Assembly: GCA_002724675.1 (NCBI GenBank)
Contig: PBPL01000255.1
Coordinates: forward strand, 23,553 to 87,552
Direction: 5' to 3'
Source: Deltaproteobacteria bacterium
GTDB taxonomy: Bacteria; Myxococcota_A; UBA796; UBA9615
Length of the DNA: 64,000 nucleotides
Numbering within the stretch: the first letter of the stretch is position 1; the number at the start of each line of letters is the position of its first letter. Below are positions 1 to 16,386 of the stretch, piece after piece. The position numbers were made by a program, and so were the translations under genes. The notes beneath the pieces were generated by a model. It saw only the letters and a program-made list of their open reading frames with translations, was not told where the DNA came from and searched no databases.

Positions 1-1954
1 TGCTGCTCTGCTGGCCGCTGGGCACCCCTTCGACTTGCCTCGGCTTCAGTACACTCCCTTCTGCGGAGGCTGCACCGCCGAGACTCTGCTCGCCTTGCCC
101 TTGTTCTCGGTCCTCGGCCCCAGCCTTGCTGCCTGGCGGTTGATCCCGCTCGCCTTCGGCCTGGCCATCTTGGTGCTGAGCTATCGCATCGTCTGCCGCG
201 CCGAGGGTGTGGGAGCGGCCGCCATCACCGGGCTCTGCCTCGTGTTGGCGCCCCCGTTCTTCCGAGAGTGCGGGATTGTCGCGTTCGGCAGTCACTTCGA
301 GGTCCTGGCCCTCGTGCTCGCCGCCATGATCCCCTGGAGCAATCTGTTCGAGAGAACCCGAGCCCGCGACGCATTCACTCTGGGCCTCTTGCTGGGCTTG
401 GCGTTTTGGTTCTCGTACACATCGGCCTTTGCAGCACCGGTCCTCCTGGGCTCTCTCTTCCTATGCCGCTGGCGCAGCCTCATGCAATCGGGCGGACTGG
501 CTGTTTTAGGGGCCCTCGCACTGGGTTGCCTCGTGGGCATCATACCGCTGGTGAGCACCCAGATGGCGCTCCGCAGCGCCCACTTGGTCGCCGAGGGCTC
601 CTTTCTCTCTGTGTACGGTCGGGATGCCTTCGATCTGATCACCGGTAGCCCCGGATTGGGGGCTCGGATCATGACGCTGGTGGGGCCCTCGTACTGGGCC
701 TCCATCTTCAATCCCACCTTTGGGCCCGACAACGCCATCCCCTCGCTCGTCTACGCGCTCTTGCAGGCCGGGTGGGTAGCGCTCGCGCTGGGGATCGGCT
801 GGCGCAGCGTGAGAGGGGCGGCAGAGGCCAACCAGAGCAAGGAGCTGAGTTCAACAGCCCCGATCCCGCTTGTGGCTTCGCTCCTCACCCTCTCTTACGC
901 ATTGCTGTTTGTGCTCATGGCTCCTTATCGGGGTGAAGTGCCGCCTCCGCCTCCGGTGCCCGCCAACGGCCTGCGCTACCTGGTGCCTCTCGTACCTCTG
1001 GTGGCCCTCTGTGCGGGCCCGGCGGTGATGCGAGGGCTGCGCGCTGGCCAGCGGCTGCGCGCGTTCACAGCCGTGGCGCTCCTCGCATTCTTGACGCCGG
1101 GAGCCATCGCCGCGGTGGACTCGGTGGAAGTGCGTTGGTTGTCGTCGGAGCCCCTGTATCGGCCCGCCATCGACGTCACCACGGTCCTGGGTCGCACGCG
1201 CTGGGATGCGCCTTCGGTGTCCGAATTGGCGGCCACTGGCGCCGTGGATCAACCTCTCTCGAGTGCGCCGCGGCACCGCTTCGCCCGCAGAGCCCACCTC
1301 CATGCCTATGGCGAAGCCCTCGCTCAGCGAGTGACTCCCAACGTCACTGCCGGAGAGCTTCAGGGAGTCCTCAGGGCCATCGAGGCGTTGCCAGAAGACG
1401 AGGGCCTCGTGCTCTACGAGGCGATCGTCCGCGGACTGGCTCCGGTCATTCCGGCGCCACCTTGGGAGCCTCCCTCGGGGCCGTTTGGCCAGCTGGTGTC
1501 TGCGGCCCTGGCGCCCGACACGGGCGACGCCTACCGCCAGCTGTGGCGGGCTGCTCTCAACCGAGGCCGCGACCCGTTCTGGGACCTGCACCTGCGCCTC
1601 ACTCAGGGAAAGCCGCTGCCGGCTGCCTGGCTGGACTCCCGCATCGAAGACGCTCGGCTGGAGGCTTTTTGCTGGACCCTGGGGGCGATGACGGGCGTGG
1701 CCTTCCGCCAGGCGCAAGATCCCCACTTCGAGATGACGGAGTCTCTCCGGGTCCGCAACGCCATTCCTGAGAGACATCGGGTGGTCTTTGCCGAGGGGCT
1801 GGGCCAGAGTCTGGGCCGACGGTGGGGCTACAGCCACAGACGGTACGACGAGTTGCTGGGGCATCTGGGGGACCCCCAAGAGCAAGAGGTGTTCTCCCAG
1901 GCGTTTGCCCAAGGGGCTCGTGCGACCTTTCTGTTTCCGGTCGCGCTGGACTGA
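1..1954 (+). CDS. Multi-pass integral membrane protein, possibly a GT-C-fold (ArnT/PMT-like) glycosyltransferase, with a C-terminal soluble domain. It is 5'-partial: the frame is open to the window edge and the first in-window start is TTG at 35
   Basis: There is no in-frame stop between position 2 and 35. At least 8 hydrophobic helices are rich in Leu/Ala/Gly (e.g. LIPLAFGLAILVLSY, LGLLLGLAFWFSYTSAF). A roughly 300 aa hydrophilic C-terminus follows. The family assignment is by resemblance only. Confidence 0.4.
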   Translation, partial: AALLAAGHPFDLPRLQYTPFCGGCTAETLLALPLFSVLGPSLAAWRLIPLAFGLAILVLSYRIVCRAEGVGAAAITGLCLVLAPPFFRECGIVAFGSHFEVLALVLAAMIPWSNLFERTRARDAFTLGLLLGLAFWFSYTSAFAAPVLLGSLFLCRWRSLMQSGGLAVLGALALGCLVGIIPLVSTQMALRSAHLVAEGSFLSVYGRDAFDLITGSPGLGARIMTLVGPSYWASIFNPTFGPDNAIPSLVYALLQAGWVALALGIGWRSVRGAAEANQSKELSSTAPIPLVASLLTLSYALLFVLMAPYRGEVPPPPPVPANGLRYLVPLVPLVALCAGPAVMRGLRAGQRLRAFTAVALLAFLTPGAIAAVDSVEVRWLSSEPLYRPAIDVTTVLGRTRWDAPSVSELAATGAVDQPLSSAPRHRFARRAHLHAYGEALAQRVTPNVTAGELQGVLRAIEALPEDEGLVLYEAIVRGLAPVIPAPPWEPPSGPFGQLVSAALAPDTGDAYRQLWRAALNRGRDPFWDLHLRLTQGKPLPAAWLDSRIEDARLEAFCWTLGAMTGVAFRQAQDPHFEMTESLRVRNAIPERHRVVFAEGLGQSLGRRWGYSHRRYDELLGHLGDPQEQEVFSQAFAQGARATFLFPVALD

Positions 1955-2025
1955 CTGGCCCAGACCACAAGCCGGTAGACCGAAGCGCCCTGATATAGGG
2001 GCGCGGGCGCGTTGGGATTGTTATC

Positions 2026-5000
2026 TTGCACCCGATGTCCCCCACAGGAAGTGTGCCACTCGCTGTCGTCCGGACCCTGATGGCAGTCCGCAGACGTCGT
2101 CGGCTGCTCGCGGGCCTCCAAGCTCTCGCGTGGATGCTCGGGGGACTCGCTGTCTTGTTCGCGCTGGGAGGGCTGGTTGCGTCGAGCCCGCCCCACAGAG
2201 TCAACCCCTGGCTCCAGCAGGGCGCGAGGCTGTGGCTGGTGGCTGCGCTGGCCGGGCCTGTGGCCTTATTTCTGATCCCAGCATGGCGGCGGACGAGCTC
2301 CCTGTTGGCGTTGGCCAGAGCCATCGACGATCGAGTCCCGGAGACCCGAGACTCCCTGATGACCGCAGTCGATCTGGCCCACGCGCTGGACTCGGGAGCG
2401 CTGGAGACCGACGAACAGACCCGTAGGCTCGCCCATGCTCACCTGGGCCAAGCGGAACGCTGGTCGGCTTCAGTCTCAGCCCTCGAGCTCTTGCCTCTCT
2501 CGGTGCTCGGACGTCGGACCCTCGTAGGCCCTGTAGTTGCCGCCGTGGTGGCAGCCGCCATGGTCCACAGCGCGCTGCCGCTCGGCTCGGGTCTGCGACA
2601 GCTGTTGGGGCCCAGTCCCGCGCTGGCCGAGGACGGCCTGTCGGACGCAGGCACGGCCTCCCTGGTTCTCAGGAACCTCAACCTCACCCTGACACCTCCG
2701 GCGTATTCGGGACGGGAGGAGCTCGTCCTGGAGGGCACCAGTGGTGATTTTCAGGCTCTGCCAGGAACCCGAGTCACGCTGAGCGCCGATCTTCCCGCGG
2801 GAGGAAGGCAGTTGACCTGGCACTGGGGAGGCGACGATGCCGTCGCCCACCCCGTGGAGGGGACCCATGTCTCGTTCCCCTTCGTGGTCCCTGGCCGGGG
2901 GCACTACCACCTGAGCTTGGAGCGCGCGCTGGGACGTTCCGAGCTGCAGACCCGAAGATTCCGGGTACAGGCACTTCCCGACAATCCCCCCGAGCTGGAG
3001 GTGTCTGCGCCAGCCGGGACCGTCGACCTTCGCTCCGAGGACGAAATCCAGATTCAGATCCGCGCAGCCGACGACTTCTCCCTCTCTCGCCTGGAGCGCG
3101 TCGTGATGGCGGGTGATCGAGAGATCGCTCGAGTTCCCATCGCCGACGTGGCGAGACAAGCCGAGTGGAGCGGCGCCATGCCCTGGCACCCAGGACTGGA
3201 CTTGAGCGACCAGGGGGGGGATGTGGAGATGATCATCGAGGCCTGGGACAACGACACGGTCAATGGACCCAAGGTCACCCGCTCGCGGCCCATCGAGATC
3301 TACGTGCCAACGGCGAGGGACCAACATCGCCGGGCCCTCAACCTCAAGCAACGACTCCTCAACGAGTCCTTGGACTTCCTCGCCACCTTGCTGGTGGATG
3401 ACTACGGCGCATCTGCTCAGGTGCGCATGCGCGACGAAGTGCTGGCGCAGTTCGACCGGCAGCACCATCTGGCCCTGGCCGTCTTGACGACGGCGTCCGA
3501 GTTGTCGACCACCCTTCAACAAGATCGCTACGAGCGGCGCTCTGTGTTTCTGGGGATCAGCCAGGCGGTCGAGAATCTGGCTCGCCGTTGGCAAACCGTG
3601 GTGGAGCTGGTCGAGACCGAGATCCGAGCGGGGCAGAGCTCCGCTGTGCACCCCATCTTGGTGGGCCAGCTGCTCACCAGTCGGCGGAACGTAGCCCAAG
3701 AGCTGGAACGGGTCGTCATCGATCTCTCTGCGTTCATCCAACTTCAGCAAGGTGAAGAGGCGTTGGACCAGCTGGCCGACACCGAGCCCCTGCTGTCCGA
3801 CCTGGCAGACCTGGTGCGCCAGGCACAAGATGGGAAGCCGGTGCAAGACGCCCTCGCCCAAGCATTGGATGAGCTGGCGGAGCGCCTCGACGAGGTCGCC
3901 CGAAAGCTGGCCGAGCGAAGCCGCGGTCCGGACGAGGGCTTCGCCAACCGTCTTCCTTCCGACCTAGCCCCCGGCATGTTGGAGCAGATCCAGCAACTCC
4001 TTGCCGAGGGGCGGTACGACGAAGCCATGGAGCGTGTCCAGCAAGCCATGGATGCAGTCAGCGACTTGGCAGAGAACCTCAACCAGGAGCGCGAAAATCA
4101 AGCAGGCAGCCAAGAGGCCCAGCAGCTGGCTCAGCAGCTGGACGAGGTCATCCAGGAGACCCAACGTCTCGAGCAGGAGCAAGAGGAACTCATCGAAGCG
4201 ACTCAGGAGCTGGAGCGGCGATTCGGGAGCGGCGAACCCCTGAGCGAGCAATCCCGACGGGAGCTGGCTGAGGACATGGACCGGCTCCATCGCTTGATTC
4301 AGGACTTGCCCGTCACTCCTCTCCCAGCCCGGGCGCAAGGAGCCGTACGGCAGCGGGCTCGGCTCGCTGAGCGCATGAGCGCGCAGATGCGCGAGGCCTA
4401 CGAGGAAGGGGATCTGGACGAGGCCATCGAGCTCGGGGAGACCGGCGAGGCCTATCTGGACGACATGGACGGGGATCTGGCGCGCAGCCAGGATCTCGGG
4501 GAGGCACTCCGTCGCGACGCTCGCAGCGAGGTCATGGAGGCCCAGGGCTTGGCGCACAGCATCGTGGAGCGCATGCGACGAGGTCGCCGCCAAGCCGAGG
4601 CATCCCGTCAGCAGGCGAGCGGCGCAGGGCAGGGGGTTCGCCAGCGGCAAGGCACGCTGCGGCAAGGGGTCCAAGCACTCCGTCAGCAGACCGAGCGCAT
4701 TGGCGGGTCAGCGTTCAACCCAGTGGCTGGGCGAGACAGCCTCGACGCAGCGGGCGAGCTCATGGAGAGAGCCGGCCAACGACTGGGGGGTGGGCAGCCC
4801 TCCCACGCGCTGGCGGCCGAACAGGACGCTCTCGGGCAGCTGCGCCAGTTCCGGGAATCGCTCGAGGCCAGTCGCATGGCCATGCAGAGTGGCGGGTCCA
4901 TGGGAGCGGGCGCGATGGCTCGCTCCGGCTCTGGCCGGTCCAGTCTTGGCTCGAGGCCCCGATCCGATGGCATCCTCGGTGAGTCGGGCAATCAGGACGT

Positions 5001-5133
5001 GGAGATGCCAGAGCCCGAGGACTTCGTCGGCCCCGAGGCGTTTCGGTCGCTGGTACAAGAGGGCGCTGCCGAGGATGCCCCCGATCGCTATCGCCCCTAC
5101 AACCACAGCTACTACGAAGAGTTGGTTCGATGA
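2026..5133 (+). CDS. Large membrane-anchored protein of 1035 aa with a long acidic, Glu/Gln/Ala-rich coiled-coil C-terminal region. It is probably DUF4175 / TIGR02302-like, a family found next to BatA/MoxR operons.
   Basis: Two N-terminal TM helices (LLAGLQALAWMLGGLAVLFALGGLVA; LWLVAALAGPVALFLIPAW). Residues about 650–900 are heptad-like and E/Q/L/A-rich (…QQLAQQLDEVIQETQRLEQEQEELIEATQELERR…). Its stop overlaps the next start (ATGA at 5130–5133). Confidence 0.55.
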   Translation: MHPMSPTGSVPLAVVRTLMAVRRRRRLLAGLQALAWMLGGLAVLFALGGLVASSPPHRVNPWLQQGARLWLVAALAGPVALFLIPAWRRTSSLLALARAIDDRVPETRDSLMTAVDLAHALDSGALETDEQTRRLAHAHLGQAERWSASVSALELLPLSVLGRRTLVGPVVAAVVAAAMVHSALPLGSGLRQLLGPSPALAEDGLSDAGTASLVLRNLNLTLTPPAYSGREELVLEGTSGDFQALPGTRVTLSADLPAGGRQLTWHWGGDDAVAHPVEGTHVSFPFVVPGRGHYHLSLERALGRSELQTRRFRVQALPDNPPELEVSAPAGTVDLRSEDEIQIQIRAADDFSLSRLERVVMAGDREIARVPIADVARQAEWSGAMPWHPGLDLSDQGGDVEMIIEAWDNDTVNGPKVTRSRPIEIYVPTARDQHRRALNLKQRLLNESLDFLATLLVDDYGASAQVRMRDEVLAQFDRQHHLALAVLTTASELSTTLQQDRYERRSVFLGISQAVENLARRWQTVVELVETEIRAGQSSAVHPILVGQLLTSRRNVAQELERVVIDLSAFIQLQQGEEALDQLADTEPLLSDLADLVRQAQDGKPVQDALAQALDELAERLDEVARKLAERSRGPDEGFANRLPSDLAPGMLEQIQQLLAEGRYDEAMERVQQAMDAVSDLAENLNQERENQAGSQEAQQLAQQLDEVIQETQRLEQEQEELIEATQELERRFGSGEPLSEQSRRELAEDMDRLHRLIQDLPVTPLPARAQGAVRQRARLAERMSAQMREAYEEGDLDEAIELGETGEAYLDDMDGDLARSQDLGEALRRDARSEVMEAQGLAHSIVERMRRGRRQAEASRQQASGAGQGVRQRQGTLRQGVQALRQQTERIGGSAFNPVAGRDSLDAAGELMERAGQRLGGGQPSHALAAEQDALGQLRQFRESLEASRMAMQSGGSMGAGAMARSGSGRSSLGSRPRSDGILGESGNQDVEMPEPEDFVGPEAFRSLVQEGAAEDAPDRYRPYNHSYYEELVR

Positions 5134-6725
5134 CCTGGCCTCGCTCTGTTCTGGTCCTCACCGTTGTTGCCGCAGCGCTCTGGGCGGGAGCCCCTGATAG
5201 CGCAGGGGCAGGCGACTACCATTCGGCGACCGAGGCCCTGGAGCGTGTCCAAGAGACCCGAATTGACGAGGCGGAGCTGGTGCTCAAGGGGATGCCGCTC
5301 GGCACGCCTGCGCGAGCATGGGCGGAGGCATCCATTCTCTTTCACCGAGGGCGCTATTCGGCAGCTCGCGACGCCCTCCCCGAGGCTGCTCCAGGAGAGC
5401 CAGATGGCCTCCGACGGCTGCGCATCCGCATCGAGCATGCGCACAAGGCAACCCTGGGGATGATGGAGCGAGCCGTAGGCAACTTCCTCTACCGCTTCGA
5501 AGGGGGGCCCGATGCGATCCTGGTGGACTACGCGGTGGAAGCTCTCGAGGGGCAGCGCGCAGCCATGGAGGAGATCCTGGGCGCAACCCCCAGCCAGCCG
5601 GTAGTGGTCGAGTTCTTCCCCACTGTAGAACGCTTTGTCTTGGCGACCGGGCTGCCCATGGAGTGGGTGGAGACGACCAACACGGTGGCTGTGTGCAAGT
5701 GGGACCGGCTGATGGTGCTGTCGCCACTCAACATGCCGCGGGGCTATCCATGGAAGGACACCCTGGCCCACGAATACGTCCACCTGATCCTGAGCCAGGC
5801 CAGCCGAAATCGCGCACCCATCTGGTTCCACGAGGGCTCTGCCAAGGTCCTAGAGACGCGCTGGCGGGACCCCAAGGGGGGCGAGTTTCTAGATCCGTGG
5901 GGAGAGAGCCTGTTGGCCCGAGCACTGGATGAGGGAGCGCTGGTGGACTTCGAGGCAATGCACCCGTCCATGGCAGCCCTTCCTTCCAGCGAGATCGCCA
6001 GCTTGGCTTTTGCGCAGGTGGCCTACGCGGTGGACTACATCCTCGATAGCGTCGGACCACGGGGATACCGGCAGATTGTCGAGGAGACCGCCCTCTACGG
6101 CGACGTGCTGCGTGCCTTGGACCTAGTGCTGGGTCGCTCGCTGGGTAGCTTCGAGGATCGCTACCAAGCTCATATGCGCTCCCAGGGGCTCCGCATTCGA
6201 ACCCAGGTGGCTGGGTTCGATCTAAAGCTGGAGGCTGGCGCGGCAGGGGTGTCCGACAGCGAGGGGGTGGCCCTAGACCCTGTGCTCCTAGACCATCGAC
6301 GGATGCAAGACCACACCCGCATTGGCGACCTCTTGCGGCTGCGTGGACACCGAAGAGCCGCCCTCATCGAATACGAACGAGCCGAGCTAGCCGGGCCCTA
6401 TCACTCCCCCGCACTGGCCAACAAGAAGGCGCGAACCCTGCGCGCGCTGGGTCGCGCAGATGCTGCCCGGCAGATACTCGAAGAGACCGTAGACCTCTAT
6501 CCCGAGTTCGCGCCCACGATTGCGTTGCTCTGTGAGCTCTCGGCAGCAACCGAAGAACACCAGCGCACCGCCGACCTGGCCCAGCGAGCGCTCGCCATCA
6601 ACCCCTTTGATCCCAAGATCCACCTGCACCTCATCGGCGCCCTCACAGGCCTCGGAGACACCGATGGAGTCAAACACGAACAACGGGTGTTGCAGATCCT
6701 CGCCGATCACCTCGGCAGGCACTGA
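5130..6725 (+). CDS. Secreted putative zinc metallopeptidase (HExxH gluzincin-like, Peptidase_MA_2-like) with C-terminal TPR repeats
   Basis: N-terminal signal peptide (VLVLTVVAAALWAGAP). An HExxH motif in LAHEYVHLILSQ, followed 18 aa later by FHEGSA, a candidate third Zn ligand (Glu). The C-terminal third is TPR-like (…YERAELAGPYHSPALANKKARTLRALGRADAARQ…). Confidence 0.55.
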   Translation: MTWPRSVLVLTVVAAALWAGAPDSAGAGDYHSATEALERVQETRIDEAELVLKGMPLGTPARAWAEASILFHRGRYSAARDALPEAAPGEPDGLRRLRIRIEHAHKATLGMMERAVGNFLYRFEGGPDAILVDYAVEALEGQRAAMEEILGATPSQPVVVEFFPTVERFVLATGLPMEWVETTNTVAVCKWDRLMVLSPLNMPRGYPWKDTLAHEYVHLILSQASRNRAPIWFHEGSAKVLETRWRDPKGGEFLDPWGESLLARALDEGALVDFEAMHPSMAALPSSEIASLAFAQVAYAVDYILDSVGPRGYRQIVEETALYGDVLRALDLVLGRSLGSFEDRYQAHMRSQGLRIRTQVAGFDLKLEAGAAGVSDSEGVALDPVLLDHRRMQDHTRIGDLLRLRGHRRAALIEYERAELAGPYHSPALANKKARTLRALGRADAARQILEETVDLYPEFAPTIALLCELSAATEEHQRTADLAQRALAINPFDPKIHLHLIGALTGLGDTDGVKHEQRVLQILADHLGRH

Positions 6726-6744
6726 CACGAACCCGGGAGCCCCC

Positions 6745-7782
<1,038 letters not shown>

Positions 7783-7811
7783 TGGACACCGTGAGGAAAA
7801 GGTAGTGGCGG

Positions 7812-8810
7812 GTGAGTAGCATCAAATCCCACGCGAACGGATCGATCAGCGCCGAGCTGCTCGAGCAGGTTCGAAACCTAGTCGCGCACGCCAAAGCTGT
7901 GGTGCGTGGATCCGGAACGGGGGTCCACCGTTCCCATCGCCTTGGAGGCGGGAGCGAGTTCGCCGAGCACAAGAACTATGGGCCGGGAGACGACCTCCGA
8001 CACGTGGACTGGAAGGTCTTTGGTCGAACAGACCGCTATCTCGTCAAGCAATTCGAGAGCGAGCGCCGCACAGAGGTGCGGCTGGTCCTGGACCGCAGTG
8101 GGTCGATGGCTTTCGGCACGACTGGGAGCCACGAGGCCGCCGCCTGGGGCCCCTGGCCGAGCACCAAGTGGGAAGCCGCCCGCGCCCTCGGCCTCGCTCT
8201 GGCCTTCGTATTTCTTCGCCAGGGCGATCGACTCGGGCTGTCGATTCTCGACGGTGCTCATTCCGCGCCGCTACCGGCTCGGGGGGGCGCCCAACTCATG
8301 CACGAGTTGAGCCACGCAGTGCTTTCGAGCCAACCCACGGGCTCGGCCCGGCTGGGAGACAACCTCCGCAACTTTTCCCCCAGCCGTTCACGACCCCTGG
8401 TGGTGCTCGTCTCTGACCTCATGGCTGAGGACGAGGGCGAAGCTCAGAAGGCTCTGGCCCATCTGCGGGCCCGGGGCTCGGAGGTGTGGCTGGTGCACAT
8501 CGTGGATCCCGCTGAGATCCACTTCCCCTATGAAGAGCCGACGCTCTTTGTGGGGCTCGAAGACCAGCAGAGCCTGGGGCTGAACCCCAGGGAGCTGGCA
8601 GCCAGCTATCGCGCCGAGTTCGCGGCCTTTCTCGACCGTCAGCGCACCCGTTGTCTGCAGGACGGCATCCACTACCTCAGGGTTGTCACCGACGAACCCT
8701 TGGAGGAGGCGCTGGCTGGCTTCCTCAGGGGGTCTGGGAGTGTGCGCGCTGCCCCTAACGGCACAAGCCCGGACCGCCCCCAAAACGCGGCTAAGGACAA
8801 GGTGGGCTAG
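7812..8810 (+). CDS. DUF58 domain protein, the usual MoxR-associated partner
   Basis: Canonical DUF58 signature …HKNYGPGDDLRHVDWKVFGRTDRYLVKQFESE…. It sits immediately downstream of moxR. Confidence 0.85.
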   Translation: MSSIKSHANGSISAELLEQVRNLVAHAKAVVRGSGTGVHRSHRLGGGSEFAEHKNYGPGDDLRHVDWKVFGRTDRYLVKQFESERRTEVRLVLDRSGSMAFGTTGSHEAAAWGPWPSTKWEAARALGLALAFVFLRQGDRLGLSILDGAHSAPLPARGGAQLMHELSHAVLSSQPTGSARLGDNLRNFSPSRSRPLVVLVSDLMAEDEGEAQKALAHLRARGSEVWLVHIVDPAEIHFPYEEPTLFVGLEDQQSLGLNPRELAASYRAEFAAFLDRQRTRCLQDGIHYLRVVTDEPLEEALAGFLRGSGSVRAAPNGTSPDRPQNAAKDKVG

Positions 8811-8812
8811 GA

Positions 8813-10930
8813 ATGGGCCTTCACCTTGCTGCGCCATGGATGTTGCTCGGCCTGGGCTTGCTGAGCCTGCCGGTGTTGGCACACTTGACTGGCTACCAAG
8901 AGGTCCACACTGTGGACTTCCCCAGCCTGCGTTTTCTACGCGCCTCCCAGCTGAAGGTTCGGCGTCGCACACGGGTAGAGGCCCTGGTTCTGTTGATTCT
9001 TCGCCTTCTGGCCGTCTCCCTGCTCGTGCTCCTCTTTGCAGGCCTGAGTGTCACCTGGACGGGGGCGTCGCTCGCCGGGCTCGATCCGTCACAGACGACC
9101 GTCGTTCTGTTGGATGTGTCCGCTTCCATGCACACGAGGACCGAGGACGGCTCTGTGTACGAGAAGGCGGCAGAGGAGGCCCATCGGCTCTTGGATGGCC
9201 TCGGTCAGGAGACCCTCGCTGCCGTCATCGCGTTTGACGCTGAGGCGCGGGTTCTAGGCCCAGGAATGACCGCATCCAAGGATGCGCTGGGAGCCGCGCT
9301 GGACGAGCTCACGCCGGGGGCGGGCCCGACTCGTCTGGACAACGCACTGCGCCGCGCGGGCGAGCTGTTGCGAGAGGAGGGCATCGCGGGAGCCAATATC
9401 TTCGTCCTCTCGGACGGCACCGCCACCAGCCTTCCGGGACCCACCACCTCGTCCATTTCCCCCGATGTGGTGGTCCACTATCACGACCTGCTGGGCGGTC
9501 GGCCGCAAAACCGGTTTGTGGATGGGGTCGAGACACAGGGTGGAATGAAGCGAGGTGAAGGGCTCCGTGTGGAGGCCCATGTCGTGTCGACTGGAACGGC
9601 GGGAGACGAGGCTGTCCCGCTGACACTCCGGCTCGAAGATGGCCTAGAGGTAGTCGGCGACCTGGCGTTCGAGGGGGGCACTGCGTCGAGGAGCTTCACA
9701 CTTCCCATCCCGCCCTCGGGCCGCCCCAAGGCCCAGCTCATCCTTCCCGAGGATGCTCTGCCCATCGATGATCGCCACGCGTTCACGCTGCAAGGCGAGA
9801 GTCAGCTGGACGTCCTTCTCGTCTCCGGAGATGGCGGCGCCCAGCCGCGGGACGACGAGGTGTACTACCTGGAGAAGGCGCTCCAGCCCGGGCCTGGCTC
9901 CCCGTCCCGGATCCGGCCGCGGGTCGTCACGGCGGAAGAACTGCGTCGCATCGACGGCGGGCGAGGGGACGTGGTGTTCCTCTGCAATGTGGCCGACCCC
10001 CGACCACTGGCGGAGAACTTGATCGACTTCGTCAAGCGGGGTGGCGGCTTGTTTGTCGCGGTGGGAAATCGGGTAGATCCCGACCGCTACAACCAGAGCC
10101 TCGGCGATCTCTTGCCCTCCCGGTTCACAGAACTGAAGACCCGGGGCGCCGGCACCTTCGAGTTGAGCCCCCTTGGGCTAGCGGTGCCGCCCATGGACCG
10201 GGACGAGTTCCGTGTGTTTCGGACGGGCGGGGCCAACGTCTTCTCACGGGTTCGTTTCGGCAAGGTGATCGGGACCGAGCCCAGTGTGCAGAAAGACTCC
10301 GAGGTGCTCCTGCGCTACACCGACGGGCTGCCGGCCTTGCTGGAGCGCCGCGTGGGGGAGGGGAGGGTGCTGCTGTTTACCTCCAGCATCGACGATGACT
10401 GGACGGACCTCCCGCTTCGATCCATCTTCGTATCGCTGATGCACCAGGCAGCTCGAAGCCTCAGCGGCACCCTGGCTATGGACTCGGCCGGTGTGTTCGA
10501 CGTGGGGTCGCGAGTGACACTGCCGGTGCCACCCGACCCCTCGGAGGCGGCATGGGTGCGTGCGCCCGACGGCCGGGATCTCGCCATGGACACGGCCTCC
10601 GCCGACGGCTCCGGGATGGCCCAGTTCGCAGCCACCCACTGGCCGGGGCACTACGCCCTCTACTGGGGAACCGGTGGCGACCGCAGCGCTGGCATCTTGC
10701 GTGCAGTGTTCTCGGTGCGCGTGCCAGCATCGGAGTCCCGCCTGATCCCCGTACAAACCGACGCCCTGCTGCAGTCAGTGCCCGGGCTGGTCTTTCACGG
10801 GGCCGCTGACCAGGGGGGCAAGGACCAGCCTGGGGAGGTCCTTCGGACCGCATCCCTGGCGCCGTGGCTGGTGGTTCTCCTAGGGCTCGTTCTACTCACG
10901 GAAGGGTGGCTGGGAGGGCGGAGGCCATGA
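8813..10930 (+). CDS. BatA-like membrane protein with an N-terminal double-TM 'aerotolerance' domain and a VWA domain
   Basis: N-terminus MGLHLAAPWMLLGLGLLSLPVLAHL is BatA_N-like, with a second TM helix (ALVLLILRLLAVSLLVLLFAGL). The VWA MIDAS start is VVLLDVSASM. Start and stop are coupled to neighbours (8810/8813; ATGA at 10927–10930). Confidence 0.8.
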   Translation: MGLHLAAPWMLLGLGLLSLPVLAHLTGYQEVHTVDFPSLRFLRASQLKVRRRTRVEALVLLILRLLAVSLLVLLFAGLSVTWTGASLAGLDPSQTTVVLLDVSASMHTRTEDGSVYEKAAEEAHRLLDGLGQETLAAVIAFDAEARVLGPGMTASKDALGAALDELTPGAGPTRLDNALRRAGELLREEGIAGANIFVLSDGTATSLPGPTTSSISPDVVVHYHDLLGGRPQNRFVDGVETQGGMKRGEGLRVEAHVVSTGTAGDEAVPLTLRLEDGLEVVGDLAFEGGTASRSFTLPIPPSGRPKAQLILPEDALPIDDRHAFTLQGESQLDVLLVSGDGGAQPRDDEVYYLEKALQPGPGSPSRIRPRVVTAEELRRIDGGRGDVVFLCNVADPRPLAENLIDFVKRGGGLFVAVGNRVDPDRYNQSLGDLLPSRFTELKTRGAGTFELSPLGLAVPPMDRDEFRVFRTGGANVFSRVRFGKVIGTEPSVQKDSEVLLRYTDGLPALLERRVGEGRVLLFTSSIDDDWTDLPLRSIFVSLMHQAARSLSGTLAMDSAGVFDVGSRVTLPVPPDPSEAAWVRAPDGRDLAMDTASADGSGMAQFAATHWPGHYALYWGTGGDRSAGILRAVFSVRVPASESRLIPVQTDALLQSVPGLVFHGAADQGGKDQPGEVLRTASLAPWLVVLLGLVLLTEGWLGGRRP

Positions 10931-11718
10931 CACGCCAGAGCCAATTCTCTCGTCGTGGCGTTCTCCAGGCCCTGGCTGCTGCCACGGGCACCGGAACTCT
11001 AGGCTGGAGCGGAGACCTCCTCGCCCTGGGCGATCGAAAGGTTGGGGTGGCGCGCCTCGACCTGCCCGACCTGCCCGATCCGCGACCTGGCGCGCTGACA
11101 GATCTGCTGCGCGAGGTCAGCCACAATAGCTCCATCAGCGCGGAGGTTCGGCCGGCGCTGGTGGACCCAGGATCGGAGGCGCTGTTCGAACATCCGTTCG
11201 TGGTGCTCTCGGGGGATCGGGGGTTCGAGCCCCTGGGGGATCAAGCGCTCGCCAACTTGCGGCTGTACGTGCGCGAGGGTGGACTGCTCTTTGTGGACGA
11301 CGCCACAGGACTCGAGCGCTCGGCGTTCGACGACAGTGTGCGCCGGGAGCTGTCCCGCCTTTTGCCCGGAACCCCACTTCGGCGCATCGGCCGTGACCAC
11401 GCCATCTACCGCTCGTTCTTTCTGATGCGTGGAGTTGCGGGACGCATGGTCGTTCAGCCCTACCTCGAGGGGCTCTGGCTGGGAGACATCACGCCCGTTC
11501 TGTATTCCCGGAACGATCTGTTGGGGGCCGTCTGGCGGTCCTCAAGTGGCGGCTACGCTCTGGAGGTCGTCCCCGGCGGAGAGCGCCAACGCCTCCAGGC
11601 TCGCCGTATGGCCATCAACCTGGTTTTGTTCGCCGTCACCGGCAACTACAAGCGCGACGTCGTGCACGTAAAGACGCTGCTCAAGCGCATGCGACGGCAG
11701 GGGGGCTACGGAGAGTGA
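10927..11718 (+). CDS. Tat-signal exported protein, DUF4159-like with a possible class-I glutamine-amidotransferase-like fold
   Basis: Twin-arginine motif SRRGVLQALAAATG at the N-terminus, with the start ATG at 10927 overlapping the upstream stop. An internal FVVLSGDRGFEP…LYVREGGLLFVDDATG block resembles GATase1/ThuA-like folds. Assignment is by resemblance. Confidence 0.5.
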   Translation: MTRQSQFSRRGVLQALAAATGTGTLGWSGDLLALGDRKVGVARLDLPDLPDPRPGALTDLLREVSHNSSISAEVRPALVDPGSEALFEHPFVVLSGDRGFEPLGDQALANLRLYVREGGLLFVDDATGLERSAFDDSVRRELSRLLPGTPLRRIGRDHAIYRSFFLMRGVAGRMVVQPYLEGLWLGDITPVLYSRNDLLGAVWRSSSGGYALEVVPGGERQRLQARRMAINLVLFAVTGNYKRDVVHVKTLLKRMRRQGGYGE

Positions 11719-14006
11719 ACGGCAACCTCGTCCAGCAGATCTCCTTCACCTGGGATCCGCTGCTCCCCGACCTGTTGTGGGTGCCTTCGGCGCTCGTGGC
11801 GATGGCGATCCTCGCGCTGTCGTTGCGCGCCTCGGTTGGGTTGCCTGCGTGGAAGCGGGGGTTGCTTGTGGGGCTGAGGGCCCTCGCCTTTGCCTTGCTC
11901 GCGGTCATCCTGGCCGGACCTTCTACGCTGCGCACGGAGGGGAGAGAAGTGCGGGACCCCTATGTCGTGTTGATCGACGGCTCCCGCTCCATGGCGGTCG
12001 AAGATCAGGAGGGGACCCGGTCGGGGGCGGTAGCTCGGTGGCTTGCACGCCACGAGGGCTCGTTTCGGACTCTGGCGGAAGAATACGACCTGCGGTTCTT
12101 CGTGGCGGGAGACGAGCTGGCGCCCCTAGCCCTGGACCAGGCCATTCCTCGAGACGCCCTCAGCGGCTCCATTCCCACAAACGGGCAGGGCACGGACCTG
12201 GGTGCAGCGCTGTTCGGCTTGTCCGATGCGCTCGGCGGAACGAGACCGGCGAGCGTCCTGCTCGTCTCCGACGGCGCCGATCGGGCGGCGCTAGGCCGGG
12301 CCTTTTCAGACTCGGGTGCGGAGGGGGTGGAGCAGCTATCAGCGGGGCTCAAGTTCCCCGTCTCTACCTGGATGGTGGGCGACGAGGACGGGCCCCGAGA
12401 TCTGGCGATCACCAACCTAACCGTGCCGCCCTTTGGCTTCGTGCGCCGCCCGCTCAGCCTCCAGCTGGAGGTGACCTCCCGGGGGCTGCCCCAACGCACG
12501 CACGTGGCTACCCTGCGATCCAATGGAGAGGTGGTCGCGACTACCGAGCTGCACTTCGACGAGGATGGAAGGAGCGCCGTGGACTTCGAGGTGAAGCCCG
12601 ATGAGATGGGCTTTCACACCTACGACGTCAGCATCCCTACACCCGAGGGCGATGCAATCCCGGCCAACAACCAGGCCGAGGTGACAGTCAAGGTGATCCG
12701 GGACCGGACCCGGATCCTCCAGGTCACCTCCCGCCCGTCCTGGGACGTGAAGTTCCTTCGAAGGCTGCTCAAGACCGACCCCAACATCGATCTCGTCTCC
12801 TTCTTCATCCTCCGGAACAGCGAGCGAGGTGGGCAGCTCGCCCGCATGGGAAACCTCTCGCTCATCGCCTTTCCTTACGAGGAGCTGTTCACTCAGGACC
12901 TGGAAGGATTTGATCTCGTCATCTTCCAGAATTTCTGGTTTGGCTCGTTCACCCATTACCCAGACACCGAGTTCGTCCGAAACATCAGGGACTATGTGAG
13001 CAGGGGAGGGGCCTTCTTGATGATCGGTGGGGACAACTCGTTCGGGGAGGCCAACTATGGATCCTCGCCCCTCGCAGAGGTGATGCCCACTCAGATCCCA
13101 GATGCGGCATCCATCACCCAGCCGTTTCGGGCGGTGCTGAGCGAGGCCGGGCAGCGCCACCCCGTGACTCGACTGGTCCGCGAGGGCGATCGCAACCTGG
13201 GCCGCTGGGAAGATCTGCCGCTACTCCACGGCTGGAATCCCCTGGGAGCTCCCCAGGAGGGTGGGGTCGTGCTCGCCACAGCTGGTGCAGGCGGCCCGCC
13301 CATCGCCGCAGTGCGCACGGCGGGCAAGGGCCGCACAATGGCCTTCGCCACCGACACCACTTGGCGCTGGGCCATGGCCGGCACCGAAGGACCTGGAGCA
13401 GGTCAGGACCACGCTCTGTTCTGGCGCAACGCCATCCGTTGGCTGATCAAGGACGCGGAGGAAAAACAGGTGCAGTTGGTCTTGGATCGGGAGAACTACC
13501 AACTGGGCGATCCCATGCAGGTGATGGTTCGCGTCCTCCGGGAGGACTACTCCCCGTGGGCCAACGCTCAGGTGGTGGGTCGCGTTGCGCTCCTAGGCGG
13601 CGGCGATGCGACCCCTATCGAAGGAGTCACCGATGCTGATGGTCAATTGACAGTCCTGCTTCCGTCGACCGCCCAGGGCACCGTTGTGGTGGAGGTCGAC
13701 GTTCCGGACGTTCCTGCTCCCTTTGGTCACGCGGAGGCGCGGGCCTCCATCAGCGACCGACAGGGAGAGTTTCTGGACGCTCGAGTCCGCCCGGGGCTCC
13801 TCAAGGCCCTGTCTGAGGCCACCGGCGGCAAGGTGCTGGGGGGGCGGGATCCCGACCCGCGACTCGCGGCTACTGGCGGCGGAAACTCGGTGCTGGCGGT
13901 CGATCGAAAAGTAGAGTCGCTCTGGAATCGATGGTGGTTGCTGGTGGTCTTGGTGTTGCCGCTCGGCGCCGAGTGGGCGACGCGGAGACGGATGGGACTG
14001 CCCTGA
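11715..14006 (+). CDS. Membrane protein with a VWA domain and a C-terminal GATase1/ThuA-like domain (BatB/BatA-related)
   Basis: N-terminal TM helices. VWA MIDAS motif VVLIDGSRSMAVED. A C-terminal block FQNFWFGSFTHYPDTEF…SRGGAFLMIGGDNSFGEANY. A final TM helix (WWLLVVLVLPLGA). The start overlaps the upstream stop. Confidence 0.6.
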   Translation: MNGNLVQQISFTWDPLLPDLLWVPSALVAMAILALSLRASVGLPAWKRGLLVGLRALAFALLAVILAGPSTLRTEGREVRDPYVVLIDGSRSMAVEDQEGTRSGAVARWLARHEGSFRTLAEEYDLRFFVAGDELAPLALDQAIPRDALSGSIPTNGQGTDLGAALFGLSDALGGTRPASVLLVSDGADRAALGRAFSDSGAEGVEQLSAGLKFPVSTWMVGDEDGPRDLAITNLTVPPFGFVRRPLSLQLEVTSRGLPQRTHVATLRSNGEVVATTELHFDEDGRSAVDFEVKPDEMGFHTYDVSIPTPEGDAIPANNQAEVTVKVIRDRTRILQVTSRPSWDVKFLRRLLKTDPNIDLVSFFILRNSERGGQLARMGNLSLIAFPYEELFTQDLEGFDLVIFQNFWFGSFTHYPDTEFVRNIRDYVSRGGAFLMIGGDNSFGEANYGSSPLAEVMPTQIPDAASITQPFRAVLSEAGQRHPVTRLVREGDRNLGRWEDLPLLHGWNPLGAPQEGGVVLATAGAGGPPIAAVRTAGKGRTMAFATDTTWRWAMAGTEGPGAGQDHALFWRNAIRWLIKDAEEKQVQLVLDRENYQLGDPMQVMVRVLREDYSPWANAQVVGRVALLGGGDATPIEGVTDADGQLTVLLPSTAQGTVVVEVDVPDVPAPFGHAEARASISDRQGEFLDARVRPGLLKALSEATGGKVLGGRDPDPRLAATGGGNSVLAVDRKVESLWNRWWLLVVLVLPLGAEWATRRRMGLP

Positions 14007-14107
14007 GCCTGGGGCGCCCACTGTGGGCGCCTCGACTGCGTGGTATAAGCCGCCGTCCCTCGGGACAACCGTTGTCACGCCCCGTCGTCCCCCGGAGCCC
14101 AAGAGTC

Positions 14108-14677
14108 ATGTTGCAGGTCACCGGCGGCTCCCTCCGAGGACGTCGACTGAAGATAGCCCCAGGAGAGAGCATCCGTCCGACCGCGTCTCGGGTGCGAGAA
14201 GCCCTCTTCTCGATCCTGGGGCAACGACTGGACGGCCGAAGAGTGCTCGACTTGTACGCTGGCGCGGGGACTCTTGGCATCGAGGCCGCATCCCGAGGGG
14301 CTGACGACGTCGTCTTTGTGGAGGTGGATGGCAGCCACGTGGAGCTGCTACGCCACAATGCCCGTCTCCTGGACGGCGTCGCCTCTCATCGCATCCTCGG
14401 CCTAGACGTTCAGCGCGCCATCCAGCGACTCCGCAGCGAGGGAGGTGGCTTCGACCTCGTCTTCCTCGACGCGCCCTATGGCAAGGGGCTGAGCACAAAG
14501 ACCCTCGAAGCCCTAGGGGCCACGGGCTACGAGGTGCTGGCTGCTGGAGCAGTCGTCGTGGTCGAGACCGATGCACGAGAAGACCTGCCCGAGCAGGTCG
14601 GGCGATTCCGTGCTGATGACTCCCGCACCTACGGCAAGACAGGACTGACCTTCTACCGAAATGGAGAGACCACCTGA
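14108..14677 (+). CDS. rsmD: 16S rRNA (guanine966-N2)-methyltransferase RsmD
   Basis: SAM-binding motif LDLYAGAGTLGIEAASRGA and the (D/N)PPY-type motif FLDAPYGKG, about 190 aa. An internal ATG at 14108 is chosen over the ORF start at 13931. Confidence 0.8.
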   Translation: MLQVTGGSLRGRRLKIAPGESIRPTASRVREALFSILGQRLDGRRVLDLYAGAGTLGIEAASRGADDVVFVEVDGSHVELLRHNARLLDGVASHRILGLDVQRAIQRLRSEGGGFDLVFLDAPYGKGLSTKTLEALGATGYEVLAAGAVVVVETDAREDLPEQVGRFRADDSRTYGKTGLTFYRNGETT

Positions 14678-16376: not shown

Positions 16377-16386
16377 AGAGCGACTT

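What the first reader, a model, noticed from the sequence alone, without database searches (positions are those of the whole stretch)
2026..14006. Seven-gene, translationally coupled MoxR–DUF58–VWA operon extended by a DUF4175-like coiled-coil membrane protein and an HExxH peptidase
The core moxR / DUF58 / BatA-like VWA / second VWA-GATase-like gene set is common. Here it is fused into one roughly 12 kb unit with overlapping stops and starts at 5130/5133, 8810/8813, 10927/10930 and 11715/11718. The unit begins with a 1035 aa two-TM protein carrying a roughly 250 aa acidic coiled coil, and a secreted gluzincin-like peptidase-TPR protein. MoxR-VWA pairs are thought to act as chaperone or remodelling systems whose substrates are mostly unknown. 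A peptidase embedded in the operon suggests a proteolytic maturation or quality-control role at the envelope.
Basis: partly seen in the sequence, partly recalled or inferred. Interest (0 to 1): 0.5.

Follow-up and report, generated by a model that had tools for sequence, protein, structure and literature searches.

The report
MoxR envelope operon with dedicated peptidase
A real, tightly packed seven-gene operon, conserved in several bacterial phyla, joins a MoxR ATPase and its von Willebrand-type membrane partners to a membrane-anchored DUF4175 protein and a periplasmic zinc peptidase; it is a widespread variant of the poorly understood Bat/MoxR envelope operons, and its function has never been tested.

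Summary
Window 2035-14006 (+) carries seven close-packed genes: DUF4175, Peptidase_MA_2+TPR, MoxR (AAA_3), DUF58, BatA_N+VWA, DUF4159, VWA+GATase1_like. Corrections are small. 8810/8813 is a 2-nt spacer, not an overlap. The DUF4175 protein has three conserved hydrophobic segments, not two. Its "coiled coil" is modelled as helical bundles.

The arrangement is not peculiar to this window. The peptidase has at least 594 relatives in species-level genomes. DUF4175 lies directly upstream in 59 of 66 loci, with a 4-nt stop/start overlap in 42 of 53. MoxR follows in 54 of 70. The same families recur in other gene orders in an unnamed 4.4-Mb contig (all seven) and in Gemmatirosa (six).

The peptidase has an invariant HExxH...E motif and a confident gluzincin fold. 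MIDAS and Walker A motifs are present. The GATase1-like domains lack a conserved cysteine.

Best reading: a MoxR (MRP/Bat-type) envelope assembly or quality-control system. Its periplasmic protease is probably docked on the DUF4175 protein. The mechanism is inferred, not shown. I found no paper describing this association. Novelty: new variant of a known kind. Interest is moderate.

The parts
1985..2004 (+). G+C-rich hairpin about 30 nt after the stop of the upstream PMT_2-like gene. It is a possible 5' boundary of the operon.
   Evidence: a 7-bp stem within a fold of -32.2 kcal/mol. The z-score is only -1.6, so the evidence is weak.
2035..5133 (+). Gene 1: DUF4175 protein, 1032 aa. It has three N-terminal TM segments with a conserved cytoplasmic loop of about 75 aa. 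Two Ig-like beta-sandwich domains follow (aa 213-424), then acidic helical bundles (aa 427-951), a disordered linker and a conserved C-terminal tail ending YYEELVR.
   Evidence: Pfam DUF4175, E 1e-13. Hydropathy. AlphaFold model, pLDDT 85.4. Foldseek finds only generic tandem Ig/FN3 hits. C-terminal motif conserved across phyla.
5130..6725 (+). Gene 2: exported gluzincin-type zinc metallopeptidase (Peptidase_MA_2) with a C-terminal TPR domain, 531 aa. Its ATG overlaps the gene 1 stop (ATGA).
   Evidence: The 4-nt overlap with the DUF4175 gene is conserved in 42 of 53 loci.
5769..5843 (+). Active-site motifs of gene 2: HEYVH (aa 214-218) and WFHEGSA (aa 232-238), the latter containing E235, the presumed third zinc ligand.
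   Evidence: One search gives the positions. H214, E215, H218 and E235 are invariant in 33 homologues.
6745..7782 (+). Gene 3: MoxR-type AAA+ ATPase, 345 aa. Walker A GVPGLAKT lies at nt 6934-6957. Walker B is LILADE.
   Evidence: Pfam AAA_3 E 2e-59 and AAA_lid_2 E 3e-17. Motifs.
7812..8810 (+). Gene 4: DUF58 protein, 332 aa, VWA-like, with no TM segment. The MIDAS-type DRSGS motif lies at nt 8091-8105.
   Evidence: Pfam DUF58, E 1e-33..
8813..10930 (+). Gene 5: BatA-type membrane protein, 705 aa. It has an N-terminal two-TM hairpin (BatA_N/TIGR02226), a VWA domain with DVSAS MIDAS (nt 9113-9127), a previously unannotated GATase1-like region (aa ~322-554) and a C-terminal TM segment.
   Evidence: hhalign of its C-terminal region against the gene 7 GATase1-like region gives probability 99.1%, E 2e-18.
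10927..11718 (+). Gene 6: DUF4159 protein, 263 aa, with a twin-arginine signal (SRRGVL, nt 10948-10965). Its ATG overlaps the gene 5 stop.
   Evidence: Pfam DUF4159, E 1.8e-31. TIGR01409 TAT signal, 17.7 bits against a cut-off of 16.7..
11715..14006 (+). Gene 7: 763-aa membrane protein. It has an N-terminal TM hairpin, a VWA domain (DGSRS MIDAS, nt 11976-11990), a GATase1_like domain without a conserved cysteine, an Ig-like region and a C-terminal hydrophobic tail. Its GTG overlaps the gene 6 stop.
14010..14034 (+). Hairpin immediately after the gene 7 stop; it is the likely 3' end of the operon. A TGGTATAAG element follows at 14041-14049, upstream of rsmD.
   Evidence: -22.1 kcal/mol, z -2.1. 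By my reading of the alignment, relatives L087 and L005 also have palindromic G+C-rich sequence at the same position, with a different sequence. These were not folded. TGGTATAAG is shared with L087.

Best explanation
This is one chromosomal operon of a marine, Myxococcota-like bacterium. It encodes a complete seven-protein envelope system built around a MoxR (MRP/Bat-type) AAA+ ATPase.

Shown:
- The gene content.
- The tight packing.
- Intact catalytic and metal-binding motifs.
- Recurrence of the same families in several phyla and in different gene orders.

Inferred:
- MoxR and the soluble VWA-like DUF58 protein work in the cytoplasm.
- Genes 5 and 7 encode paralogous proteins: a TM hairpin, a VWA domain, a non-catalytic GATase1-like domain and a C-terminal TM segment. 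Together with the Tat-exported DUF4159 protein, they form an inner-membrane-anchored periplasmic scaffold. The scaffold holds client proteins through its MIDAS sites.
- The DUF4175 protein spans the inner membrane three times. It exposes a conserved cytoplasmic loop, and it projects Ig-like domains and a long acidic helical stalk into the periplasm.
- The DUF4175 protein docks the co-translated zinc peptidase. The docking may use the peptidase's TPR domain and the conserved C-terminal tail of DUF4175.
- The peptidase then trims, matures or removes envelope proteins presented by the scaffold.

Overall this would be an ATP-controlled envelope protein assembly and quality-control device. It would be comparable in logic to BepA (protease plus TPR) at the BAM complex.
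For: Gene content and packing:
- Domain content is established.
- Three 4-nt overlaps, with the other gaps 2-29 nt.
- Hairpins flank the unit.
- Independent gene callers find the same seven genes on a TARA Oceans scaffold whose peptidase is 100% identical and on relatives whose peptidase is 83% identical.

Linkage of the peptidase family:
- DUF4175 lies directly upstream in 59 of 66 loci. MoxR lies within 700 nt downstream in 54 of 70.
- The DUF4175 stop and peptidase start overlap by 4 nt in 42 of 53 loci across phyla.
- The full seven-gene set is present in 12 of 42 loci with enough flank.
- The same seven families appear in a different order in L084.
- Six of them appear in another order in Gemmatirosa kalamazoonensis. 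DUF4159 was not found there.

The peptidase looks active and exported:
- HExxH...E is invariant.
- The model has pLDDT 92.6 and pTM 0.91.
- It has an N-terminal signal-like segment.

Periplasmic placement of the partners:
- Gene 6 has a Tat signal.
- Charge distribution around the TM segments of genes 5 and 7 places their large domains outside.
- The BatA-like protein BB0173 has a periplasmic VWA domain by experiment (PMC5700661).
- DUF4175 homologues share three conserved TM-like segments after an arginine-rich N-terminus.

Other points:
- DxSxS MIDAS motifs are present in genes 4, 5 and 7.
- No cysteine is conserved in the GATase1-like regions, which suggests a structural role.
- Known relatives give envelope or stress phenotypes: RL3499-RL3502 (cited in PMC5700661) and the Riemerella bat operon (PMC11834572).
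Against: - There is no experimental evidence for this variant. No substrate is known.
- The DUF4175-peptidase pair occurs without adjacent MoxR in Brocadiia.
- The pair occurs with MoxR but without adjacent DUF58/BatA genes in Nitrospinaceae. The seven genes are therefore not obligatorily one transcription unit.
- How a cytoplasmic AAA+ ATPase would act on periplasmic VWA proteins is unknown for every Bat-type system.
- Deleting all bat genes in Leptospira biflexa gave no phenotype (PMC3557215).
- Topologies rest on hydropathy and the positive-inside rule only.
- The Pfam peptidase score is 1.3 bits under the gathering threshold.
- The TPR-to-C-terminal-tail docking idea is untested. No multimer prediction was available.
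- The promoter and terminator scans were uninformative.
Confidence: 0.5

Rival explanations
1. Two separate modules sit side by side. A DUF4175-peptidase pair has its own job, for example anchoring a periplasmic protease. A Bat-type MoxR/DUF58/VWA module lies next to it. They are frequent neighbours but do not form one machine.
For: The pair occurs alone in Brocadia and Jettenia loci. It occurs with MoxR only in Nitrospinaceae. The gene 1/gene 2 coupling (42 of 53 loci with a 4-nt overlap) is much tighter than the gene 2/gene 3 coupling (10 of 62). Characterised Bat operons, as described in PMC5700661 and PMC11834572, list VWA, TPR, DUF58 and MoxR. They do not list DUF4175 or a peptidase.
Against: MoxR directly follows the peptidase in 54 of 70 loci from several phyla. 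The same families stay together even when the gene order is shuffled, in L084 and Gemmatirosa. That pattern is hard to explain without functional linkage.
Confidence: 0.2
2. The peptidase acts only on the system's own parts. It matures or releases a component, for instance by cutting the disordered linker (aa 957-990) of the DUF4175 protein, or by processing the VWA scaffold proteins. It does not act on other envelope proteins.
For: The peptidase is strictly co-encoded and translationally coupled with DUF4175. A low-confidence, disordered linker precedes a highly conserved C-terminal module in gene 1.
Against: No cleavage-site evidence exists. TPR-protease proteins such as BepA act on external clients (PMC8423444, PMC7950410). 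Nothing here distinguishes self-processing from client processing.
Confidence: 0.15
3. It is a Bacteroides-type aerotolerance or oxidative-stress operon. The peptidase is an accessory TPR protein equivalent to BatC/BatE.
For: It shares the MoxR-DUF58-BatA core, and a TPR-bearing protein is present. Bat operons have been linked to oxidative and heat stress in Bacteroides and Riemerella (PMC11834572).
Against: No BatD (oxygen tolerance) family hit was found among the seven products at E <= 0.01. Leptospira bat deletion showed no oxidative-stress role (PMC3557215). Carriers include aerobes and anaerobic anammox bacteria alike. The HExxH...E site is invariant, so the protein is more than a TPR adaptor.
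Confidence: 0.1
4. It is a MoxR-vWA conflict or defence system of the kind enriched in multicellular bacteria, with the peptidase as effector or regulator.
For: There is a secondary Pfam hit to bpMoxR, E 1.6e-9. The host lineage is Myxococcota-like. Peptidases are common in those systems (PMC7159879).
Against: AAA_3 scores far higher, E 2e-59. No VMAP, iSTAND, FtsH-like or beta-propeller third component is present. All seven products give no PADLOC hit. The locus has stable, housekeeping-like synteny with rsmD and coaD. The domains are predicted to be periplasmic.
Confidence: 0.03

Closest known systems
Bat (Bacteroides aerotolerance) / MRP-subfamily MoxR operons (B. fragilis, Riemerella, Francisella, Leptospira, Borrelia bb0170-bb0176)
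   Same: A MoxR AAA_3 ATPase is followed by a DUF58 gene. Membrane VWA proteins with the BatA N-terminal TM hairpin follow. A TPR-bearing protein lies in the same operon (PMC5700661, PMC11834572). Function is poorly understood in all of them.
   Different: No BatD family member was found. The TPR protein here carries an apparently active gluzincin domain. A 1032-aa DUF4175 protein leads the operon. The BatA-like proteins are about twice as long and carry GATase1-like domains. A separate Tat-exported DUF4159 protein is present.
RL3499-RL3502 operon of Rhizobium leguminosarum (Vanderlinde et al. 2011, cited in PMC5700661; paper not held, details from my own knowledge)
   Same: It is a broadly conserved MoxR-DUF58 operon with large membrane proteins of the TIGR02226 double-TM type. 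Mutants have envelope-integrity and cell-shape defects, which is the phenotype class predicted here. Gene 5 matches TIGR02226.
   Different: It has four genes. No peptidase or DUF4175 gene is described as part of that operon. I could not retrieve the sequences to compare them directly.
BepA (E. coli periplasmic M48 metalloprotease with a TPR domain)
   Same: Both are periplasmic HExxH zinc proteases fused to a C-terminal TPR domain. In BepA the TPR domain docks the protease onto an envelope machine for maturation or degradation of clients (PMC8423444, PMC7950410). It is the best analogue for how gene 2 may work.
   Different: The peptidase family differs: M48 against Peptidase_MA_2/gluzincin. 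No M48 hit was found. BepA is not encoded with MoxR, VWA or DUF4175 genes. The resemblance is architectural only.
Mycobacterial MoxR1 with the ripA/ripB neighbourhood
   Same: An MRP-type MoxR with DUF58 and a VWA membrane protein lies next to envelope hydrolase genes. MoxR1 is reported to assist Tat export of RipA (Bhuwan 2016, as cited in PMC12067865). Gene 6 here has a Tat signal.
   Different: The hydrolase there is an NlpC/P60 peptidoglycan peptidase, not a gluzincin. DUF4175, DUF4159 and GATase1-like proteins are absent.
AdvA of Acinetobacter baumannii (DUF4175-annotated division protein)
   Same: It carries a DUF4175 annotation next to two predicted TM helices and has an envelope or division role (PMC7481262).
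   Different: Only the N-terminal part is described as DUF4175. The paper does not mention MoxR, DUF58 or BatA. Homology to gene 1 was not tested here.

Membership tests
MoxR AAA+ ATPase, MRP subfamily operon | AAA_3-type ATPase with Walker A/B motifs and an AAA lid domain | tested here: met
   AAA_3 E 2e-59 and AAA_lid_2 E 3e-17. GVPGLAKT and LILADE motifs.
MoxR AAA+ ATPase, MRP subfamily operon | A DUF58 gene immediately downstream of moxR, followed by VWA genes (Snider & Houry 2006 criterion, as quoted in PMC12067865) | tested here: met
   DUF58 starts 29 nt after moxR, and the BatA/VWA gene starts 2 nt after DUF58.
Bat (Bacteroides aerotolerance) operon | A BatA-type protein: N-terminal double-TM BatA domain plus a VWA domain with MIDAS | tested here: met
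   BatA E 1.7e-12, VWA_2 E 2.4e-13, TIGR02226 E 1.2e-12. DVSAS motif.
Bat (Bacteroides aerotolerance) operon | BatD (oxygen tolerance family) protein present | tested here: not met
   No BatD-family hit among the seven products at E <= 0.01.
Bat (Bacteroides aerotolerance) operon | Stand-alone TPR proteins (BatC/BatE) | tested here: inconclusive
Bat (Bacteroides aerotolerance) operon | Contribution to aerotolerance or oxidative-stress survival | not testable with these tools
   This needs mutants. It is also disputed for relatives (PMC3557215 against PMC11834572).
Gluzincin (clan MA(E)) metallopeptidase / Peptidase_MA_2 | An HExxH motif plus a downstream Glu as third zinc ligand, conserved in the family | tested here: met
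   H214, E215, H218 and E235 are invariant in 33 sequences with 28-81% identity to the window protein.
Gluzincin (clan MA(E)) metallopeptidase / Peptidase_MA_2 | Pfam model scored at or above its gathering threshold | tested here: inconclusive
   31.1 bits against a cut-off of 32.4. Most homologues carry a precomputed PF13485 hit.
Gluzincin (clan MA(E)) metallopeptidase / Peptidase_MA_2 | Thermolysin-like/gluzincin catalytic fold | tested here: met
Gluzincin (clan MA(E)) metallopeptidase / Peptidase_MA_2 | Zinc-dependent proteolytic activity | not testable with these tools
   Requires biochemistry.
DUF4175 | Pfam PF13779 match above threshold over most of the protein | tested here: met
   50.7 bits against 27.3, covering aa 116-996.
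RL3499-RL3502-type envelope operon | MoxR, DUF58 and a TIGR02226 double-TM protein in one operon | tested here: met
RL3499-RL3502-type envelope operon | Orthology to the Rhizobium proteins, and an envelope-integrity phenotype | not tested
   The Rhizobium sequences and the paper were not available.
MoxR-vWA ternary conflict systems (Kaur et al. 2020) | A third core component (VMAP, iSTAND, double FtsH-AAA or beta-propeller) with variable effectors | tested here: not met
   No such domains were found. There are no PADLOC hits. The system definition is from PMC7159879.
BepA-like M48 protease | Peptidase_M48 catalytic domain | tested here: not met
   No M48 hit. The resemblance is limited to the protease-plus-TPR architecture.

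The most novel reading that the evidence does not exclude
The seven proteins form a single trans-envelope machine of a kind not yet described. The cytoplasmic MoxR/DUF58 ATPase module would signal through the conserved cytoplasmic loop of the three-TM DUF4175 protein and the BatA-type TM hairpins. That signal would gate a periplasmic gluzincin docked by its TPR domain onto the invariant C-terminal tail of DUF4175. The result would be ATP-controlled periplasmic proteolysis or assembly on a VWA/GATase1-like scaffold. It would also give the first concrete client-processing activity for the long-enigmatic Bat/MRP MoxR operons.
Probability: 0.12. Interest if true: 0.7.

Novelty: new variant of a known kind. 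Interest (0 to 1): 0.35.

Why it matters
MRP-type MoxR/Bat operons are common across bacteria. They have been linked to envelope integrity, stress tolerance and virulence. No substrate or mechanism is known for them.

This variant adds an enzyme with a predictable chemistry: an apparently active zinc peptidase. It is rigidly coupled to a large membrane anchor. The linkage across phyla and across gene orders gives a defined, testable seven-component set. At least two culturable carriers exist, Sandaracinus amylolyticus and Gemmatirosa kalamazoonensis.

Finding the peptidase's substrates could give the first handle on what these MoxR envelope systems act on. The result would probably refine an existing category rather than create a new one.

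Tried and rejected
- **Defence or conflict system.** Rejected. There are no PADLOC hits, no ternary-system third component is present, and synteny is stable and housekeeping-like.
- **Active glutamine amidotransferase.** Rejected. No cysteine is conserved in the GATase1-like regions of genes 5, 6 and 7.
- **Promoter and terminator consensus scan.** Uninformative. It found 0 promoter-like sites, and terminator-like sites at chance level.
- **Rfam scan of 1-16500.** Nothing found.
- **Sequence search of solved structures.** Only TPR matches for gene 2 and coiled-coil noise for gene 1.
- **Foldseek of the gene 1 model against PDB.** Only generic tandem Ig/FN3/MG-like hits.
- **AFDB fold library.** Unavailable.
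- **Profile search for distant DUF4175 relatives.** It did not reach alphaproteobacterial proteins. The weakest hits, P0182 and P0178, have no MoxR context and are probably helical low-complexity matches.
- **Pairwise BLASTP among genes 5, 6 and 7.** Insignificant. Profile-profile comparison then showed homology between genes 5 and 7, but not with gene 6.
- **Literature searches.** I searched for DUF4175, DUF4159, TIGR02226, Peptidase_MA_2 and MoxR with metalloprotease. No paper described this association.
- **Vanderlinde 2011 (RL3499-RL3502).** The paper is not held.

Full report
**What is in the sequence**

On the + strand between 2026 and 14006 there are seven consecutive ORFs.
- Gene 1 (2035-5133): DUF4175, E 1e-13.
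- Gene 2 (5130-6725): Peptidase_MA_2 plus TPR_19. The peptidase scores 31.1 bits, just under the 32.4 gathering score.
- Gene 3 (6745-7782): MoxR-type AAA_3, E 2e-59, plus AAA_lid_2.
- Gene 4 (7812-8810): DUF58.
- Gene 5 (8813-10930): BatA N-terminal domain plus VWA_2. It also matches TIGR02226.
- Gene 6 (10927-11718): DUF4159, with a TAT-signal hit just above its cut-off.
- Gene 7 (11715-14006): GATase1_like with a weak VWA_2.

The junctions were read directly. Three are true 4-nt overlaps: ATGA at 5130, ATGA at 10927 and GTGA at 11715. The junction at 8810/8813 is a 2-nt spacer, not an overlap. The other gaps are 19 and 29 nt.

G+C-rich hairpins follow the upstream gene (1985-2004) and gene 7 (14010-14034; -22.1 kcal/mol, z -2.1). 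By my reading of the alignment, two relatives also have palindromic sequence at the latter position, with a different sequence. I did not fold them.

The flanking genes are unrelated to the unit. Upstream is a PMT_2-like glycosyltransferase. Downstream are rsmD, coaD and an aminotransferase.

**Corrections to the description**

- Gene 1 most likely starts at ATG 2035, because homologues align from that residue.
- Gene 1 has three hydrophobic segments (aa 30-48, 66-84, 163-181), not two. A third segment was found in 32 of 36 aligned sequences.
- With the arginine-rich N-terminus inside, this topology puts the roughly 850-aa C-terminal part in the periplasm, not the cytoplasm. This is an inference from the positive-inside rule.
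- The AlphaFold model of gene 1 has pLDDT 85.4 and pTM 0.55. It shows, in order:
  - the TM helices;
  - a small cytoplasmic helical region;
  - two beta-sandwich domains (aa 213-424);
  - helices of about 25-60 aa in bundles (aa 427-951), rather than one long coiled coil;
  - a disordered linker (aa 957-990);
  - two conserved terminal helices.
- The region aa 601-800 is acidic, with 46 D+E against 23 K+R.

**The peptidase**

- A 33-sequence alignment spanning 28-81% identity to the window protein keeps H214, E215, H218 and E235 invariant.
- The model is confident, with pLDDT 92.6 and pTM 0.91.
- No solved structure is detectable by sequence for the catalytic part.
- The N-terminus is a signal-like hydrophobic segment.

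The product is therefore very probably an exported, active zinc peptidase with a C-terminal TPR domain.

**The other components**

- MoxR has Walker A and B motifs.
- DxSxS MIDAS motifs are present in genes 4, 5 and 7.
- Profile-profile comparison shows that the unannotated C-terminal half of gene 5 is homologous to the GATase1-like region of gene 7 (probability 99.1%, E 2e-18). The two are paralogous architectures: TM hairpin, VWA, GATase1-like domain, C-terminal TM.
- No cysteine is conserved in the GATase1-like regions of genes 5, 6 or 7. These are unlikely to be amidotransferases and more likely serve as scaffolds.
- The positively charged loop between the two N-terminal TM helices and the basic C-termini place the large domains of genes 5 and 7 in the periplasm. 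This agrees with the experimentally mapped BatA-like protein BB0173 (PMC5700661).

**How common the arrangement is**

The peptidase family has:
- 380 clusters at E <= 1e-30 among 1.84 billion representatives.

Among the best 80 genome loci:
- DUF4175 is directly upstream in 59 of 66 loci with enough flank.
- MoxR is within 700 nt downstream in 54 of 70.
- Of 42 loci with at least 9 kb downstream:
  - 12 have all five downstream genes;
  - 9 have MoxR-DUF58-BatA;
  - 16 have MoxR only, mostly Nitrospinota;
  - 4 have none, all labelled Brocadiia or unassigned Myxococcota.

The carriers are labelled Myxococcota (including Sandaracinus amylolyticus), Nitrospinota, Brocadiia, Binatia, Dadabacteria and others.

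The DUF4175 stop and the peptidase start overlap by 4 nt in 42 of 53 evaluable loci. That is far tighter than the peptidase/MoxR junction, which overlaps in 10 of 62.

The same families also recur in other gene orders:
- A 4.4-Mb contig (L084) carries peptidase, DUF4159, MoxR, DUF58, BatA, DUF4175-like and GATase1-like genes, in that order.
- The 1.1-Mb replicon of the cultured Gemmatirosa kalamazoonensis carries six of the seven in another order. DUF4159 was not found there.

Linkage that survives reshuffling is good evidence for a functional unit.

The window itself matches a TARA Oceans scaffold whose peptidase is 100% identical. An independent gene caller found the same seven genes there.

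**A conserved tail**

DUF4175 homologues from all these phyla carry a C-terminal motif of the form ...P..Y...V..YY(E/K)EL(V/I)(K/R). In most it runs to the last residue. In L084 and Gemmatirosa the motif is kept but followed by a few extra residues.

Three features make docking of the peptidase on this tail an attractive idea: the TPR domain on the peptidase, the preceding disordered linker, and the translational coupling. The idea is untested.

**Most likely function**

The system is a MoxR (MRP/Bat-type) envelope system. It has a cytoplasmic ATPase/DUF58 module, an inner-membrane-anchored periplasmic VWA/GATase1-like scaffold, and a DUF4175-anchored zinc peptidase. The peptidase would mature or clear envelope proteins.

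Only the parts list, motifs, folds and linkage are shown. Localisation, interactions and proteolysis of clients are inferred.

Evidence against a single obligatory machine:
- The DUF4175-peptidase pair occurs without MoxR in Brocadia.
- The pair occurs without DUF58/BatA neighbours in Nitrospinaceae.
- Deleting the bat genes in Leptospira gave no phenotype (PMC3557215).

A defence-system reading is not supported, because there were no PADLOC hits and no ternary-system third component is present (PMC7159879).

**Comparison with the known**

- The core is that of Bat operons and of RL3499-RL3502 (PMC5700661, PMC11834572). Membership of the MRP MoxR operon class is met.
- The Bat label is only partly met, because no BatD was found.
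- What differs is the conserved DUF4175 protein, the catalytic domain on the TPR protein, and the long GATase1-like VWA proteins with a separate DUF4159.
- BepA is a functional analogue of gene 2 but not a relative (PMC8423444, PMC7950410).
- The families are named in public databases, and homologues are annotated in sequenced genomes. I found no paper describing the association.

**Verdict**

The unit is a widespread, uncharacterised variant of a known kind of operon, not a local oddity. Interest is moderate at 0.35. It would rise if the peptidase were shown to supply the missing activity of MoxR envelope systems.

Noticed in passing
window 26419-30879 (-): A 1486-aa ORF with ten MopE-type putative copper-binding motifs (Cu-binding_MopE, E 3e-97) plus FG-GAP repeats. 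It looks like a large secreted or surface metal-binding protein.
   Followed up: no
window 47856-49982 and 49979-52684 (+): Two overlapping tandem Ser/Thr protein kinase genes (708 and 901 aa). This is typical of Myxococcota-like genomes.
   Followed up: no
window 14041-14049 (+); L087 aligned position: A TGGTATAAG element, resembling an extended -10, lies between the hairpin after gene 7 and rsmD. It is identical in a relative whose peptidase is 83% identical, although the surrounding spacer differs. It may be the rsmD-coaD promoter.
   Followed up: partly
window 35-1954 (+): A multi-TM PMT_2-like (GT39/ArnT-type) glycosyltransferase lies directly upstream of the operon. A homologue sits in the same position in L007 (47% identity) and L088. 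It is absent from more distant carriers, so it is probably not part of the unit.
   Followed up: partly
window 16859-17959 (-): A 366-aa protein with a ParB N-terminal domain lies far from any obvious partition locus. The same gene follows the aminotransferase in relatives L087 and L088.
   Followed up: no
L049, L004, L005, L008, L058, L074 (record titles): Several MAG records carrying this operon have implausible taxonomic labels, such as 'Bifidobacterium breve', 'uncultured Rickettsiales' and 'Enterobacterales'. These are probably mislabelled or contaminated bins.
   Followed up: no
L005 and L006: Two different contigs of the same MAG (CAZUHI01) give identical tblastn coordinates and identities over the whole 21-kb locus. 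This points to a duplicated contig or an assembly redundancy.
   Followed up: no
L085 9155-9829 (-): In one Deltaproteobacteria MAG an ECF sigma factor gene is divergently transcribed immediately upstream of the DUF4175 gene. This hints at envelope-stress regulation in that lineage.
   Followed up: no
L014 5719-6495 (+): In a Nitrospinaceae genome an SPFH/Band 7 gene lies just upstream of the DUF4175-peptidase-MoxR trio. The position may be a coincidence.
   Followed up: no
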